A DNA stretch of 64,000 bases from the human T2T-CHM13v2.0 reference genome, Homo sapiens: NCBI RefSeq assembly GCF_009914755.1, contig NC_060927.1; one strand, written 5' to 3'. Below the pieces are notes generated by a model. The model was not told the origin of the DNA. It worked only from the letters and a program-made list of their open reading frames with translations, and made no database searches. This document shows positions 20,365 through 26,002 of this stretch, one piece after another (positions within the stretch are counted from its first letter, which is position 1; the number at the start of each line of letters is the position of its first letter). Made by a program: the position numbers and the translations under genes.

Positions 20365-22972
20365 TTTTTTTTAAATTTTATTATTATTGTACTTTAAGTT
20401 TTAGGGTACATGTGCACAACGTGCAGGTTTGTTACATATGTATACACGTGCCATGATGGTGTGCTGCACCCATTAACTCGTCATTTAGCGTTAGGTATAT
20501 CTCCGAATGCTATCCCTCCCCCCTCCCCCCACCCCACAACAGTCCCCGGTGTGTGATGTTCCCCTTCCTGTGTCCATGTGTTCTCATTGTTCAATTCCCA
20601 CCTATGAGTGAGAACATGCGGTGTTTGGTTTTTTGTCCTTGCGAAAGTTTGCTGAGAATGATGGTTTCCAGCTTCATCCATATCCCTACAAAGGACATGA
20701 ACTCATCATTTTTTTATGGCTGCATAGTATTCCATGGTGTATATGTGCCACATTTTCTTAACCCAGTCTACCCTTGTTGGACATCTGGGTTGGTTCCAAG
20801 TCTTTGCTATTGTGAATAGTGCCGCAATAAACATACGTGTGCATGTGTCTTTATAGCAGCATGATTTATAATCCTTTGGGTATATACCCAGTAATGGGAT
20901 GGCTGGGTCAAATGGTATTTCTAGTTCTAGATCCCTGAGGAATCACCACACTGACTTCCACAATGGTTGAACTAGTTTACAGTCCCAGCAACAGTTCCTA
21001 TTTCTCCACATCCTCTCCAGCACCTGTTGTTTCCTGACTTTTTAATGATCGCCATTCTAACTGGTGTGAGATGGTATCTCATTGTGGTTTTGATTTGCAT
21101 TTCTCTGATGGCCAGTGATGATGAGCATTTTTTCATGTGTTTTTTGGCTGCATAAATGTCTTCTTTTGAGAAGTGTCTGTTCATATCCTTCGCCCACTTT
21201 TGATGGGGTTGTTTGTTTTTTTCTTGTAAATTTGTTGGAGTTCATTGTAGATTCTGGGTATTAGCCCTTTGTCAGATGAGTAGGTTGCAAAAATTTTCTC
21301 CCATTCTGTAGGTTGCCTGTTCACTCTGATGGTGGTTTCTTCTGCTGTGCAGAAGCTCTTTAGTTTAATTAGATCCCATTTGTCAATTTTGGCTTTTGTT
21401 GCCATAGCTTTTGGTGTTTTAGACATGAAGTCCTTGCCCATGCCTATGTCCTGAATGGTATTGCCTAGGTTTTCTTCTAGGGTTTTTATGGTTTTAGGTC
21501 TAACATGTAAGTCTTTAATCCATCTTGAATTAATTATAAGGTGTATATTATAAGGTGTAATTATAAGGTGTATAATTATATATTAATTATAAGGTGTATA
21601 TTAATTATAAGGTGTAAGGAAGGGATCCAGTTTCAGCTTTCTACATATGGCTAGCCAGTTTTCCCTGCACCATTTATTAAATAGGGAATCCTTTCCCCAT
21701 TGCTTGTTTTTGTCAGGTTTGTCAAAGATCAGATAGTTGTAGATATGCGGCATTATTTCTGAGGGCTCTGTTCTGTTCCATTGGTCTATATCTCTGTTTT
21801 GGTACCAGTACCATGCTGTTTTGGTTACTGTAGCCTTGTAGTATAGTTTGAAGTCAGGTAGCGTGATGGTTCCAGCTTTGTTCTTTTGGCTTAGGATTGA
21901 CTTGGCAATGTGGGCTCTTTTTTGGTTCCATATGAACTTTAAAGTAGTTTTTTCCAATTCTGTGAAGAAATTCATTGGTAGCTTGATGGGGATGGCATTG
22001 AATCTATAAATTACCCTGGGCAGTATGGCCATTTTCACAATATTGAATCTTCCTACCCATGAGCGTGTACTGTTCTTCCATTTGTTTGTATCCTCTTTTA
22101 TTTCATTGAGCAGTGGTTTGTAGTTCTCCTTGAAGAGGTCCTTCACATCCCTTGTAAGTTGGATTCCTAGGTATTTTATTCTCTTTGAAGCAATTGTGAA
22201 TGGGAGTTCACTCATGATTTGACTCTCTGTTTGTCTGTTATTGATGTATAAGAATGCTTGTGATTTTTGCACATTGATTTTGTATCCTGAGACTTTGCTG
22301 AAGTTGCTTATCAGCTTAAGGAGATTTTGGGCTGAGACAATGGGGTTTTCTAGATATACAATCATGTCATCTGCAAACAGGGACAATTTGACTTCCTCTT
22401 TTCCTAATTGAATACCCGTTATTTCCCTCTCCTGCCTGTTTGCCCTGGCCAGAACTTCCAACACTATGTTGAATAGGAGTGGTGAGAGAGGGCATCCCTG
22501 TCTTGTGCCAGTTTTCAAAGGGAATGCTTCCAGTTTTTGTCCATTCAGTATGATATTGGCTGTGGGTTTGTCATAGATAGCTCTTATTATTTTGAGATAC
22601 GTCCCATCAATACCTAATTTATTGAGAGTTTTTAGCATGAAGAGTTCTTGAATTTTGTCAAAGGCCTTTTCTGCATCTTTTGAGATAATCATGTGGTTTC
22701 TGTCTTTGGTTCTGTTTATATGCTGGAGTACGTTTATTGATTTTCGTATGTTGAACCAGCCTTGCATCCCAGGGATGAAGCCGACTTGATCATGGTGGAT
22801 AAGCTTTTTGATGTGCTGCTGGATTCGGTTTGCCAGTATTTTATTGAGGATTTCTGCATTGATGTTCATCAAGGATATTGGTCTAAAATTCTCTTTTTTT
22901 GTTGTGTCTCTGTCAGGCTTTGGTATCAGGATGATGCTGGCCTCATAAAATGAGTTAGGCAGGATTCCCTCT
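20365..22972 (-). mobile_element. L1PA (PA3/PA4-like) 3' 2.6 kb, left palindrome arm, with open RT ORF 21601-23004
   Basis: T-rich tail at 20365, L1PA 3' UTR, ORF2 RT with QGCPLSP and LFADDMIVY; reverse complement of 23404-25986. Confidence 0.95.
21531..21615 (-). repeat. Five-copy ACACCTTATAA micro-array, left arm copy
   Basis: Exact mirror of 24761-24845. Confidence 0.9.
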
Positions 22973-23013
22973 CTTTTTTTTTTTTTTTTTGAAAAGGTCA
23001 ACAAAATTGATAG

Positions 23014-23101
23014 ACCGCTAGGAAGACTAATAAAGAAGAAAAGACAAAGGGGATATCACTGCTAGCAAGACAAATAAAGAAGAAAAGACAAAGGGGATAT
23101 C
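23014..23101 (+). repeat. 44-bp tandem duplication in the palindrome spacer
   Basis: accgctaggaagactaataaagaagaaaagacaaaggggatatc / actgctagcaagacaaataaagaagaaaagacaaaggggatatc, 3 mismatches. Confidence 0.9.
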
Positions 23102-24760
23102 ACCACTGATCCCACAGAAATACAAACTACCATCAGAGAATACTATAAATACCTCTACACAAATAAACTAGAAAATCTAGAAGAAATGGATAAATTCCTT
23201 GACACATACACCCTCCCAAGACTAAACAAGATAGAAGTTGAATCTCTGAATAGACCAATAACAGGCTCTGAAATTGAGGCAATAATTAATAGTTTAGCAA
23301 CCAAAAAAAGTCCAGGACCAGATGGATTCACAGCAGAATTCTACCAGAGGTACAAGGAGGACCTGGTACCATTCCTTTTGAAACTATTCCAATCAATAGA
23401 AAAAGAGGGAATCTTCCCTAACTCATTTTATGAGGCCAGCATCATCCTGATACCAAAGCCTGACAGAGACACAACAAAAAAAGAGAATTTTAGACCAATA
23501 TCCTTGATGAACATCGATGCAGAAATCCTCAATAAAATACTGGCAAACCGAATCCAGCAGCACATCAAAAAGCTTATCCACCATGATCAAGTCGGCTTCA
23601 TCCCTGGGATGCAAGGCTGGTTCAACATACGAAAATCAATAAACGTACTCCAGCATATAAACAGAACCAAAGACAGAAACCACATGATTATCTCAAAAGA
23701 TGCAGAAAAGGCCTTTGACAAAATTCAAGAACTCTTCATGCTAAAAACTCTCAATAAATTAGGTATTGATGGGATGTATCTCAAAATAATAAGAGCTATC
23801 TATGACAAACCCACAGCCAATATCATACTGAATGGACAAAAACTGGAAGCATTCCCTTTGAAAACTGGCACAAGACAGGGATGCCCTCTCTCACCACTCC
23901 TATTCAACATAGTGTTGGAAGTTCTGGCCAGGGCAATCAGGCAGGAGAGGGAAATAACGGGTATTCAATTAGGAAAAGAGGAAGTCAAATTGTCCCTGTT
24001 TGCAGATGACATGATTGTATATCTAGAAAACCCCATCGTCTCAGCCCAAAATCTCCTTAAGCTGATAAGCAACTTCAGCAAAGTCTCAGGATACAAAATC
24101 AATGTGCAAAAATCACAAGCATTCTTATACACCAATAACAGACAAACAGAGAGTCAAATCATGAGTGAACTCCCATTCACAATTGCTTCAAAGAGAATAA
24201 AATACCTAGGAATCCAACTTACAAGGGATGTGAAGGACCTCTTCAAGGAGAACTACAAACCACTGCTCAATGAAATAAAAGAGGATACAAACAAATGGAA
24301 GAACAGTACACGCTCATGGGTAGGAAGATTCAATATTGTGAAAATGGCCATACTGCCCAAGGTAATTTATAGATTCAATGCCATCCCCATCAAGCTACCA
24401 ATGAATTTCTTCACAGAATTGGAAAAAACTACTTTAAAGTTCATATGGAACCAAAAAAGAGCCCACATTGCCAAGTCAATCCTAAGCCAAAAGAACAAAG
24501 CTGGAACCATCACGCTACCTGACTTCAAACTATACTACAAGGCTACAGTAACCAAAACAGCATGGTACTGGTACCAAAACAGAGATATAGACCAATGGAA
24601 CAGAACAGAGCCCTCAGAAATAATGCCGCATATCTACAACTATCTGATCTTTGACAAACCTGACAAAAACAAGCAATGGGGAAAGGATTCCCTATTTAAT
24701 AAATGGTGCAGGGAAAACTGGCTAGCCATATGTAGAAAGCTGAAACTGGATCCCTTCCTT

Positions 24761-24845
24761 ACACCTTATAATTAATATACACCTTATAATTAATATATAA
24801 TTATACACCTTATAATTACACCTTATAATATACACCTTATAATTA
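24761..24845 (+). repeat. Five-copy ACACCTTATAA micro-array that terminates ORF2, right arm copy
   Basis: Motif starts at 24761, 24779, 24805, 24818 and 24832 with AT-palindromic linkers. Confidence 0.9.
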
Positions 24846-26002
24846 ATTCAAGATGGATTAAAGACTTACATGTTAGACCTAAAACCATAAAAACCCTAGA
24901 AGAAAACCTAGGCAATACCATTCAGGACATAGGCATGGGCAAGGACTTCATGTCTAAAACACCAAAAGCTATGGCAACAAAAGCCAAAATTGACAAATGG
25001 GATCTAATTAAACTAAAGAGCTTCTGCACAGCAGAAGAAACCACCATCAGAGTGAACAGGCAACCTACAGAATGGGAGAAAATTTTTGCAACCTACTCAT
25101 CTGACAAAGGGCTAATACCCAGAATCTACAATGAACTCCAACAAATTTACAAGAAAAAAACAAACAACCCCATCAAAAGTGGGCGAAGGATATGAACAGA
25201 CACTTCTCAAAAGAAGACATTTATGCAGCCAAAAAACACATGAAAAAATGCTCATCATCACTGGCCATCAGAGAAATGCAAATCAAAACCACAATGAGAT
25301 ACCATCTCACACCAGTTAGAATGGCGATCATTAAAAAGTCAGGAAACAACAGGTGCTGGAGAGGATGTGGAGAAATAGGAACTGTTGCTGGGACTGTAAA
25401 CTAGTTCAACCATTGTGGAAGTCAGTGTGGTGATTCCTCAGGGATCTAGAACTAGAAATACCATTTGACCCAGCCATCCCATTACTGGGTATATACCCAA
25501 AGGATTATAAATCATGCTGCTATAAAGACACATGCACACGTATGTTTATTGCGGCACTATTCACAATAGCAAAGACTTGGAACCAACCCAGATGTCCAAC
25601 AAGGGTAGACTGGGTTAAGAAAATGTGGCACATATACACCATGGAATACTATGCAGCCATAAAAAAATGATGAGTTCATGTCCTTTGTAGGGATATGGAT
25701 GAAGCTGGAAACCATCATTCTCAGCAAACTTTCGCAAGGACAAAAAACCAAACACCGCATGTTCTCACTCATAGGTGGGAATTGAACAATGAGAACACAT
25801 GGACACAGGAAGGGGAACATCACACACCGGGGACTGTTGTGGGGTGGGGGGAGGGGGGAGGGATAGCATTCGGAGATATACCTAACGCTAAATGACGAGT
25901 TAATGGGTGCAGCACACCATCATGGCACGTGTATACATATGTAACAAACCTGCACGTTGTGCACATGTACCCTAATACTGAAAGTATAATTAAAAAAAAA
26001 AA

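What the first reader, a model, noticed from the sequence alone, without database searches (positions are those of the whole stretch)
20390..25986. 2.6-kb-arm L1 palindrome that appears to be homogenising its own arms
Seen: 20390-22972 and 23404-25986 are reverse complements with a ~430 bp spacer. Mirror coordinates sum to 46376 at every point checked (20481/25895, 21601/24775, 22953/23423), so there is no net indel. Both arms carry the same private lesions, including the ORF2-terminating micro-array. I counted about 8 mismatches in the inner ~1 kb (e.g. L/F, N/D, T/M, N/I, I/T, R/K) and several at the outer tip, but none in the parts of the intervening ~1.6 kb that I compared. By contrast the TSD copies and the 44-bp spacer duplication have diverged visibly, implying an old insertion. 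Established: close, long, near-identical inverted repeats are depleted and unstable in mammalian genomes, and sex-chromosome palindromes persist by arm-to-arm gene conversion. Inference: this is a miniature, TE-derived palindrome maintained by conversion or recurrent inversion.
Basis: partly seen in the sequence, partly recalled or inferred. Interest (0 to 1): 0.85.

Follow-up and report, generated by a model that had tools for sequence, protein, structure and literature searches.

The report
Self-inverted L1 insertion, arms kept alike
One old L1 retrotransposon insertion in a ZCWPW2 intron carries an inverted 2.6-kb copy of its own 3' part, and the two copies have probably been kept nearly identical by copying sequence from one arm to the other.

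Summary
Arms 20376-22981 and 23395-26000 are reverse complements with no indel. I count 8 true differences in the inner 957 bp, none in the next 1,615 bp, and 3 substitutions plus unlike A-tails at the tip.

It is not two L1s. It is one 5.9-kb composite, flanked by a target-site duplication inside an older L1. It consists of an antisense 3' part, T17, a sense 3.0-kb copy with its own A12, and an antisense 310-bp piece that directly precedes the sense copy in L1. The "spacer" is the 5' continuation of the right copy.

Against 29 other L1 copies, the arms share 34 private substitutions and 4 private indels and differ at 11 sites. All 4 indels lie in the mismatch-free zone. The zoning is non-random (P about 0.003), so at least one conversion-like event of 1.6 kb or more is needed.

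A chr5 locus has the same architecture but 282-bp arms, which share 0 of 36 private changes. This suggests the structure forms at insertion.

Best reading (0.6): a twin-priming variant, roughly 10-25 Myr old, homogenised repeatedly. Main rival (0.22): a late duplication plus one conversion. Ape genomes could not be consulted.

The parts
20270..20354 (-). Older L1 3' end (host of the insertion), left half
   Evidence: Aligns to the L1 3'-end ruler just before the part matched by the right flank.
20355..20365 (.). Left target-site duplication, ATCAACCAGGT
   Evidence: Read. It matches 26314-26324 at 9 of 11 positions.
20365..20375 (-). Tail of the left copy: T8 then AAA on the + strand (a degraded poly(A) on the - strand)
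20376..22973 (-). Left arm: L1 from mid-ORF2 (point p) to the 3' end, antisense
   Evidence: It carries the same four indel lesions as the right arm.
20401..22015 (-). Mismatch-free zone of the left arm (mirror of 24361-25975): the inferred latest conversion tract
   Evidence: No mismatch in 1,615 bp, although 14 of the 22 CpGs of the arm lie here.
21529..21616 (-). Micro-array (66-bp tandem expansion that ends the ORF2 frame), left copy
22974..22990 (.). Central T17 run at the junction of the left arm and the sense copy. It overlaps L1's own A-run (at p) and T-run (at q).
22991..23403 (+). 'Spacer': L1 ORF2 from point q, the 5' continuation of the right arm. It holds a 44-bp tandem duplication (23014-23101).
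23404..25991 (+). Right arm: L1 from p to the 3' end, sense. ORF2 is open for 565 aa (23078-24772), with 34 of 563 residues unlike human ORF2p 8uw3_A (my count from the printed alignment).
24760..24847 (+). Micro-array, right copy
25992..26003 (+). A12 tail of the sense copy, abutting the antisense upstream piece
26004..26313 (-). Antisense 310-bp ORF2 piece ending at q-1, i.e. the L1 sequence directly upstream of 22991. Its frame is open for 103 aa.
   Evidence: positions 1080-1386 of a panel copy; the sense copy starts at 1394.
26314..26324 (.). Right target-site duplication, ATCACCCCGGT
26325..26450 (-). Older L1 3' end, right half

Best explanation
A single L1 retrotransposition into an older L1 produced a composite. 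My rough dating, from 1.4% private non-CpG divergence, puts it 10-25 Myr ago. On the L1-sense (window minus) strand the composite reads: upstream piece F (...q-1), T-run/T12, antisense copy (3' end -> q), A17, sense copy (p -> 3' end), A8. Proposed mechanism (inferred): first-strand cDNA ran from the poly(A) to q-310. Second-strand synthesis then copied F up to the only long T-run in this part of ORF2. That T-rich 3' end re-annealed to poly(A), and the L1 RNA was reverse-transcribed a second time as far as the same U-run. The resulting A-rich end paired with the T5 stretch of the first cDNA at p, and synthesis finished. This would be a twin-priming/template-switching variant that creates two arms identical at birth. 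Since then the arms have mutated independently and have been repeatedly re-copied onto each other by intrachromosomal gene conversion. The latest tract covers at least 24361-25975 / 20401-22015. Shown: the anatomy, the junctions in homopolymer runs, the zoning of differences, the shared private lesions, and the chr5 analogue. Inferred: the order of template switches, the age, and the number of conversion events.
For: Anatomy: F and the sense copy abut at one L1 position, q. One TSD pair encloses everything, and the flanks are two halves of one older L1. Both junctions sit in L1's own T-run and A-run. Apart from the run at the junction, only one other T5+ run occurs in the 3.3 kb of sense strand. 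Origin: no other copy in the genome carries the lesions; among the 40 of 9,372 candidates that were scored, the best non-self hit over the outer zone is 92%. Analogue: exact junction pattern = 2 genome hits, ours and chr5. The chr5 locus has the same order of parts and the same break at q. Its two 282-bp 3'-end copies show 0 shared, 20 and 16 unshared private changes in 265 columns, i.e. they were duplicated at or near insertion. Homogenisation: ours has 34 shared against 11 unshared private changes, versus chr5 Fisher P 2e-13. Four private indels are identical in both arms. Zoning tests give P 0.0034 and 0.0033. Differences are derived in both arms (L 6, R 5, one undecided). The AT->GC excess among shared changes is 17:7, against 279:287 in panel copies and 5:6 in single-copy parts. 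Literature: twin priming with internal duplication and '5'/3' switching' variants (10.1101/2024.08.27.596794, passages read); multi-kb conversion tracts in Y palindrome P6 (PMC3723533, abstract in listing only).
Against: No ape or second human haplotype was available, so the age of the duplication is not measured. The analogy with chr5 is an inference from one locus. The pure T17 and A12 runs look young for a structure of 10 Myr or more. CpG loss in the arms (R 4/12, L 3/12) is no lower than in panel copies of similar age (4-8 of 12), so GC-biased rescue of CpGs is not seen. The AT->GC excess is only P 0.03-0.07. Private density in the arms (1.4-1.5%) against single-copy parts (14/586 = 2.4%) does not differ significantly. 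The panel is the 29 best of only 40 scored candidates out of about 10,000, so some 'private' substitutions could be sub-lineage variants; the indels cannot.
Confidence: 0.6

Rival explanations
1. Late DNA-level fold-back duplication. An ordinary 3.3-kb antisense L1 sat here for most of its life and collected the 34 substitutions and 4 indels. A few Myr ago a break at the ORF2 T-run (for example an L1 endonuclease nick at TTTTTT/GAAAAG) was repaired by fold-back synthesis and A/T-run microhomology joining. This gave the inverted copy. One later conversion then erased differences in the outer 1.6 kb.
For: Shared private changes need no spreading under this reading. Unshared non-CpG changes in the inner zone are about 18% of the private load per arm (5 over two arms against 34-38 per arm). 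The T17 and A12 runs are pure. Private changes and a duplication/deletion scar crowd next to the junctions, including in single-copy DNA (26003-26047, 23014-23101), as expected of error-prone repair synthesis. L1-induced breaks are reported to give inverted duplications by self-annealing of resected ends (10.1101/2024.12.14.628481, passages read).
Against: The only other locus with this architecture was formed at insertion (0 of 36 private changes shared). Shared changes lean AT->GC, unlike control copies. The simplest resection/fold-back route predicts the opposite spacer orientation, so an extra flip is needed. A conversion is still needed for the zoning.
Confidence: 0.22
2. Two separate L1 insertions. 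A second L1 of the same subfamily inserted in inverted orientation at the T-run of a resident L1, with a 413-bp target deletion. The two were later homogenised almost completely.
For: The T-run resembles an L1 endonuclease site and is the only long T-run in this stretch of sense strand. L1-into-L1 insertion at A/T runs is seen at C3:89958035-89965088.
Against: It needs the new copy to be 5'-truncated at exactly the L1 position where it inserted, and no separate TSD is present. It requires even more conversion than the best explanation. The arms are 99.6-99.7% alike, while no other scored copy exceeds 95.6% over the 3-kb sense copy in my alignment (the search tables round to 96%).
Confidence: 0.08
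3. No conversion at all. The zoning of mismatches is either a formation artefact (an error-prone stretch of copying followed by faithful copying, in a very recent duplication) or an assembly or polishing artefact.
For: Differences cluster towards the two junction-side ends.
Against: 3 of the 8 inner differences are CpG transitions, and derived alleles sit in both arms. This is the mark of slow germline mutation, not of one polymerase pass. Established knowledge: the palindrome is far shorter than the HiFi reads used for T2T-CHM13. No read data were seen here.
Confidence: 0.05

Closest known systems
Twin priming and its 'switching' / internal-duplication variants of L1 insertion (Ostertag & Kazazian 2001, recalled; Zumalave et al. 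bioRxiv 10.1101/2024.08.27.596794, passages read)
   Same: One insertion with one TSD pair. L1 segments lie in opposite orientation and abut at a single L1 coordinate. The junctions sit in short complementary runs. A plain twin-primed full-length L1 broken at the very same T-run exists at C3:89958977-89965088.
   Different: The inverted segment starts at the poly(A) and carries its own A12 tail, so 2.6 kb is present twice. Reported internal duplications arise from small overruns at the inversion point. The order of parts is permuted: the upstream piece lies beyond the second tail.
Sex-chromosome palindromes kept alike by arm-to-arm gene conversion (e.g. Y palindrome P6, PMC3723533; X palindromes, PMC8981503; abstracts seen in listing)
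   Same: Inverted arms with a short spacer. Arm identity is far above what the age of the sequence predicts. The homogenised tract is multi-kb. Fixed changes lean AT->GC.
   Different: It is about 10-1000 times smaller, autosomal, intronic and gene-free, and it was born by retrotransposition rather than segmental duplication. Concerted evolution across species is not demonstrated here.
L1-induced inverted duplications / fold-backs from remodelled TPRT break ends (Mendez-Dorantes et al., bioRxiv 10.1101/2024.12.14.628481, passages read)
   Same: An inverted duplicate lies next to a poly(A)-bearing L1 junction, with microhomology at the inversion junction.
   Different: There the duplicated DNA is flanking genomic sequence in tumour or cell-line clones. 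Here the duplicated DNA is the L1 itself, in the germline, and probably copied from RNA.
Polymorphic inverted duplications in human long-read catalogues (PMC12350158, passages read)
   Same: Inverted duplications with 1-15 bp microhomology are a common structural-variant class (311 reclassified calls; 277 outside mobile elements, median 284 bp).
   Different: This one is 2.6 kb and made wholly of L1. ZCWPW2 is not named in the one supplementary file held as text.

Membership tests
Canonical twin-primed (5'-inverted) L1 insertion | One TSD pair flanks the whole insertion | tested here: met
   11-bp TSD, 9/11 identical. The flanks are contiguous halves of an older L1.
Canonical twin-primed (5'-inverted) L1 insertion | Inverted and direct segments meet at one L1 coordinate, with at most a small deletion or duplication | tested here: not met
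   F and the sense copy do abut at q. However, the oppositely oriented copies overlap by 2.6 kb, and F lies on the far side of the second tail.
Canonical twin-primed (5'-inverted) L1 insertion | A single poly(A) tail at one end | tested here: not met
   Two tails: T8 at 20365-20372 and A12 at 25992-26003.
Palindrome under arm-to-arm gene conversion | Inverted arms, short spacer, near-identity | tested here: met
   2.6-kb arms, 413-430 bp between them, 99.6-99.7% identity.
Palindrome under arm-to-arm gene conversion | Patchy identity: tracts of zero divergence beside diverged tracts | tested here: met
   8 differences in 957 bp against 0 in 1,615 bp. Fisher P 0.0034; max-gap P 0.0033.
Palindrome under arm-to-arm gene conversion | Mutations that arose after the duplication are present in both arms | tested here: inconclusive
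   34 private substitutions and 4 private indels are shared. That they post-date the duplication rests on the chr5 analogue and is not measured at this locus.
Palindrome under arm-to-arm gene conversion | GC-biased fixation | tested here: inconclusive
   W>S 17: S>W 7 against 279:287 in controls (Fisher 0.059; one-sided binomial 0.027). There is no CpG sparing.
Palindrome under arm-to-arm gene conversion | Arms group by species, not by position, in orthologues | not testable with these tools
   No primate genome other than T2T-CHM13 could be searched.
Nested independent L1 insertions | The inner element has its own TSD and an unrelated 5' end point | tested here: not met
   No second TSD. The inner copy ends exactly at the L1 coordinate of its own insertion point.

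The most novel reading that the evidence does not exclude
Two linked claims. (1) L1 integration has a so far undescribed outcome: second-strand synthesis, on reaching the ORF2 T-run, re-primes on poly(A) and reverse-transcribes the RNA a second time. This gives a self-inverted L1 with two tails. There are two germline examples in the human genome, both breaking at the same T-run. (2) When the resulting arms are long and close (2.6 kb, 0.4 kb apart), they behave as a miniature autosomal palindrome. It has survived more than 10 Myr inside an intron with GC-biased concerted evolution. The short-armed chr5 example has simply decayed.
Probability: 0.35. Interest if true: 0.6.

Novelty: new variant of a known kind. 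Interest (0 to 1): 0.45.

Why it matters
The locus offers a small, fully sequenced, selectively neutral test case for arm-to-arm conversion outside the sex chromosomes. Tract length, bias and rate could be read directly from ape and pangenome haplotypes, free of selection on ampliconic genes.

The paired comparison with the chr5 locus has the same birth mechanism but 282-bp arms 2.6 kb apart and no homogenisation. It hints at the arm-length and spacing threshold for conversion.

The architecture, recurring at one ORF2 T-run, bears on how L1 second-strand synthesis is primed and by which polymerase.

A practical consequence is inferred and was not tested. ZCWPW2 pre-mRNA should contain a 2.6-kb near-perfect hairpin. 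Long-read structural-variant callers may also mis-handle this intron.

Tried and rejected

(2) I searched bacterial and archaeal assemblies for human L1 contaminants to serve as a reference panel. Only 7 distant L1-like contigs came back (52-74% aa identity), so they were not used.

(3) I asked whether the lesions were inherited from a source element. No other copy with them was found among the scored hits, so this was rejected.

(4) ADAR-type editing of a hairpin RNA as the source of arm differences: the differences are not A>G dominated. Rejected.

(5) A crossover (spacer flip) alone as the cause of the mismatch-free zone: a crossover exchanges differences between arms and does not erase them. 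Rejected by reasoning.

(6) 'Run-off at a nick just 3' of the T-run' as the reason the inverted copy ends at q: in chr5 the inverted copy includes an A6 copy of the T-run. This is weakened.

(7) CpG sparing in the arms as a conversion signature was not seen.

(8) The relaxed junction pattern gave 159 hits. I examined the 20 loci returned and left 139 unexamined. 3 of the 20 truly have the upstream piece next to an L1 tail; the rest are chance flanks.

(9) Literature. 'ZCWPW2' + 'inversion' gave nothing on this locus; one nanopore study names ZCWPW2 as the gene with most TE-insertion calls (passage). 'inverted L1' + 'gene conversion' gave 3 papers, none on such a structure by title or abstract. 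Ostertag & Kazazian 2001 is not held and is cited from memory and from others' summaries.
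Full report
OBSERVATION

The inverted repeat is real. Arms 20376-22981 and 23395-26000 are 2,606 nt long, 99% complementary and 413 nt apart. Every mirrored pair sums to 46376, so there is no indel.

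After removing junction and tail positions, three zones remain:
- 8 real differences in left-arm 22016-22972.
- None in 20401-22015 (1,615 bp).
- 3 substitutions at 20389-20400, followed by unlike A-tails.

The micro-array is present and letter-identical in both arms (21529-21616 / 24760-24847).

ANATOMY

The "spacer" is L1. From 22991 the + strand reads L1 ORF2 continuously into the right arm. A 565-aa frame is open over 23078-24772. It aligns to residues 394-956 of human ORF2p (8uw3_A), with 34 of 563 residues different by my count of the printed alignment.

After the right copy's A12 tail (25992-26003) comes a 310-bp antisense ORF2 piece, F (26004-26313). F does not overlap the arms. It maps directly upstream of 22991 in L1:
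- In an older L1 of the window, the two abut across the run "...GCTAGTTCTTTGAAAAG".
- In a panel copy, F ends at 1386 and the sense copy begins at 1394.

The left arm ends in its own degraded tail (T8 at 20365-20372). Outside lie ATCAACCAGGT (20355-20365) and ATCACCCCGGT (26314-26324). Beyond those sit the two contiguous halves of an older antisense L1 3' end.

The object is therefore one TSD-flanked 5.9-kb composite. On the + strand it reads: T8, antisense L1 (3' end to p), T17, sense L1 (q to 3' end), A12, antisense L1 (q-1 to q-310).

Both internal junctions lie in L1's own homopolymers:
- The T-run before GAAAAG, at q.
- The A5 run in ATAGAAAAAGAGGG, at p.

Apart from the run at the junction itself, only one other T5+ run occurs in these 3.3 kb of sense strand.

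AGE AND PRIVATE CHANGES

The window's own genome could be searched. I aligned 29 other L1 copies; these were the loci returned from the 40 scored of about 10,000 candidates.
- The sense copy is 94.6-95.6% identical to the panel copies. The arms are 99.6-99.7% identical to each other.
- At columns where at least 90% of the panel agrees, the sense copy has 59 private substitutions in 2,786 (2.1%). This is at the old end of the panel range of 0.07-2.15%.
- Non-CpG private divergence is 34/2,384 in the right arm and 38/2,384 in the left. 4 and 3 of 12 ancestral CpGs are lost.
- With primate neutral rates recalled from the literature (about 0.6-1.0e-9 per site per year), this suggests 10-25 Myr. 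The figure is rough.

Within the arms:
- 34 private substitutions are shared: 13 in the inner zone and 21 in the outer zone.
- 11 positions differ between the arms.
- Four private indels are present in both arms, and all four lie in the mismatch-free zone: +66 bp micro-array after 24771, -1 after 25176, -10 after 25382, +1 at 25661.
- Every arm difference is a derived private allele in one arm: left 6, right 5, and one CpG site undecided. 3 of the 8 inner differences are CpG transitions.
- No other copy with these lesions was found. Among the 40 of 9,372 candidates that were scored, the best non-self hit over the outer zone is 92%.

IS THERE HOMOGENISATION?

The zoning is not chance:
- Unshared/shared is 8/13 in the inner zone and 0/21 in the outer zone (Fisher P 0.0034).
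- The probability of a gap of 1,615 or more among 8 points in 2,572 bp is 0.0033. With the tip sites included it is 0.00027.
- The outer zone holds 14 of the 22 CpGs, so it is not mutationally colder.

Because the differences are ordinary germline-type changes in both arms, the simplest cause is a conversion (or equivalent re-copying) tract of at least 1.6 kb after the arms had begun to diverge. This holds under every origin model except an artefact.

WHEN DID THE DUPLICATION ARISE?

This decides whether the 34 + 4 shared private changes were spread by conversion or simply predate the copy. Without ape genomes I used an internal comparator.

The exact junction "upstream piece, T-run, L1 3' end antisense" occurs twice in the genome: here and at C5:108904990. 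The chr5 locus has the same order of parts and the same break at q:
- L1 sense up to q-1.
- The tail and 282 bp of antisense 3' end.
- Antisense q+207 to q, ending in "CTTTTCAAAAAA".
- Sense q+190 to the 3' end.

Against 16 copies of its own subfamily, the two 3'-end copies of the chr5 locus share 0 private changes and carry 20 and 16 unshared ones in 265 columns. That structure was therefore made at, or very soon after, insertion, and its short, distant arms were never homogenised. Ours shows 34 shared against 11 unshared (Fisher P 2e-13 against chr5).

If our locus arose the same way, its shared lesions must have been copied between arms many times.

One further pointer agrees. Shared private changes are AT->GC 17 against GC->AT 7. 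The same comparison gives 279:287 for private changes of panel copies in the same columns and 5:6 for the single-copy parts of this element (one-sided binomial P 0.027; Fisher 0.059 and 0.071). That is the direction expected of GC-biased conversion. CpG sparing, which might also be expected, is not seen.

MECHANISM OF ORIGIN (INFERRED)

The parts fit a twin-priming variant, in these steps:
1. First-strand cDNA runs from the poly(A) to q-310.
2. Second-strand synthesis copies F up to the T-run.
3. The T-rich 3' end switches to poly(A), and the RNA is reverse-transcribed again as far as the U-run.
4. The A-rich end pairs with the T5 of the first cDNA at p, and synthesis is completed.
5. The skipped 413 nt survive only in the inverted copy.

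Twin priming with internal duplications and "5'/3' switching" variants is described for somatic insertions (10.1101/2024.08.27.596794, passages). ORF2p's possible role in second-strand priming is discussed in PMC7617806 (passages). Fold-back inverted duplications at L1-induced breaks are described in 10.1101/2024.12.14.628481 (passages).

A third locus, C3:89958035-89965088, is an ordinary twin-primed full-length L1 broken at the same T-run. It is primed from the A-tail of an older L1 fragment. This shows that A-tail/U-run pairing recurs.

The TSD (2 differences in 11 bp) and the 44-bp duplication (3 in 44 bp) are poor clocks.

Private changes are crowded around the A12 junction on both sides, including in single-copy F. 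The sites are 25976, 25980 and 25991, and 26003 (at the junction itself), 26015, 26035 and 26047. That is 6-7 in about 72 bp against about 1.5 expected (P about 0.001-0.005).

The high divergence at the arm tips therefore need not mean that the edges have escaped conversion since an ancient duplication. Junction-side repair errors, or the known excess of substitutions beside long homopolymers (recalled), would give the same picture.

The pure T17 and A12 runs also look young.

A late duplication, some 15-25% of the element's age ago, followed by one conversion therefore remains possible. I give it 0.22.

VERDICT

The structure is re-interpreted as a single self-inverted L1 insertion. At least one arm-to-arm conversion is statistically supported. 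Long-term concerted evolution is likely but unproven. Recurrent inversion and "maintenance" are untested.

It is a new variant of known kinds (twin-priming products; palindromes under conversion), not a new category.

LIMITS

- Only one human haplotype was available.
- Panels were drawn from 40 scored candidates per search.
- One analogue locus was found, and its TSDs were not determined.
- Supplements of PMC10638045 could not be read.
- The single held supplementary file of PMC12350158 does not name ZCWPW2.

Noticed in passing
L072/L073 = G000:C3:89958035-89965088: A full-length twin-primed L1 whose inversion break is at the same ORF2 T-run (q-1 / q). The inverted 5' part starts directly at the A-tail of an older 930-bp L1 fragment, as if that tail primed on the U-run. 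The two 3' ends are 92.8% alike.
   Followed up: partly
L050/L051 = G000:C5:108904179-108908221: Second genomic example of the self-inverted architecture: 282-bp inverted 3'-end copy with a (TTA)n tail at the T-run, 207-bp inverted segment, 17-bp overlap. Its 5' end and TSDs were not determined.
   Followed up: partly
window 25976-26047: Private substitutions are crowded on both sides of the A12 junction (6-7 in about 72 bp against about 1.5 expected), including in single-copy DNA. The cause is unknown: repair scar or homopolymer-side mutation.
   Followed up: partly
window 23014-23101: The 44-bp tandem duplication sits within 25-110 bp of the T17 junction and is accompanied by a deletion relative to other L1 copies (net +13/-1 in the panel alignment). 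It may be a formation scar rather than a later event.
   Followed up: no
window 23078-24772 versus 24773-25991: ORF2 is open for 565 aa with no stop or frameshift across the inner part, while all four disabling indels lie in the last 1.2 kb. This may be chance (about P 0.03 by my own arithmetic).
   Followed up: no
window 7759-10753, 52761-53602, 60400-62968: Other, older L1 fragments in the window (67-84% identical to the sense copy). Two of them were used as outgroups.
   Followed up: partly
ZCWPW2 gene (whole): A nanopore study reports ZCWPW2 as the gene with the most TE-insertion calls (13 unique insertions, 67 occurrences in 24 patients; PMC10638045, passage). Whether any call reflects this palindrome is unknown, because the supplements were closed.
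   Followed up: no
L001-L007 (bacterial/archaeal assembly contigs): Seven short contigs in microbial assemblies encode L1 ORF2-like protein at 52-74% identity. They are presumably animal DNA contamination of those assemblies.
   Followed up: no
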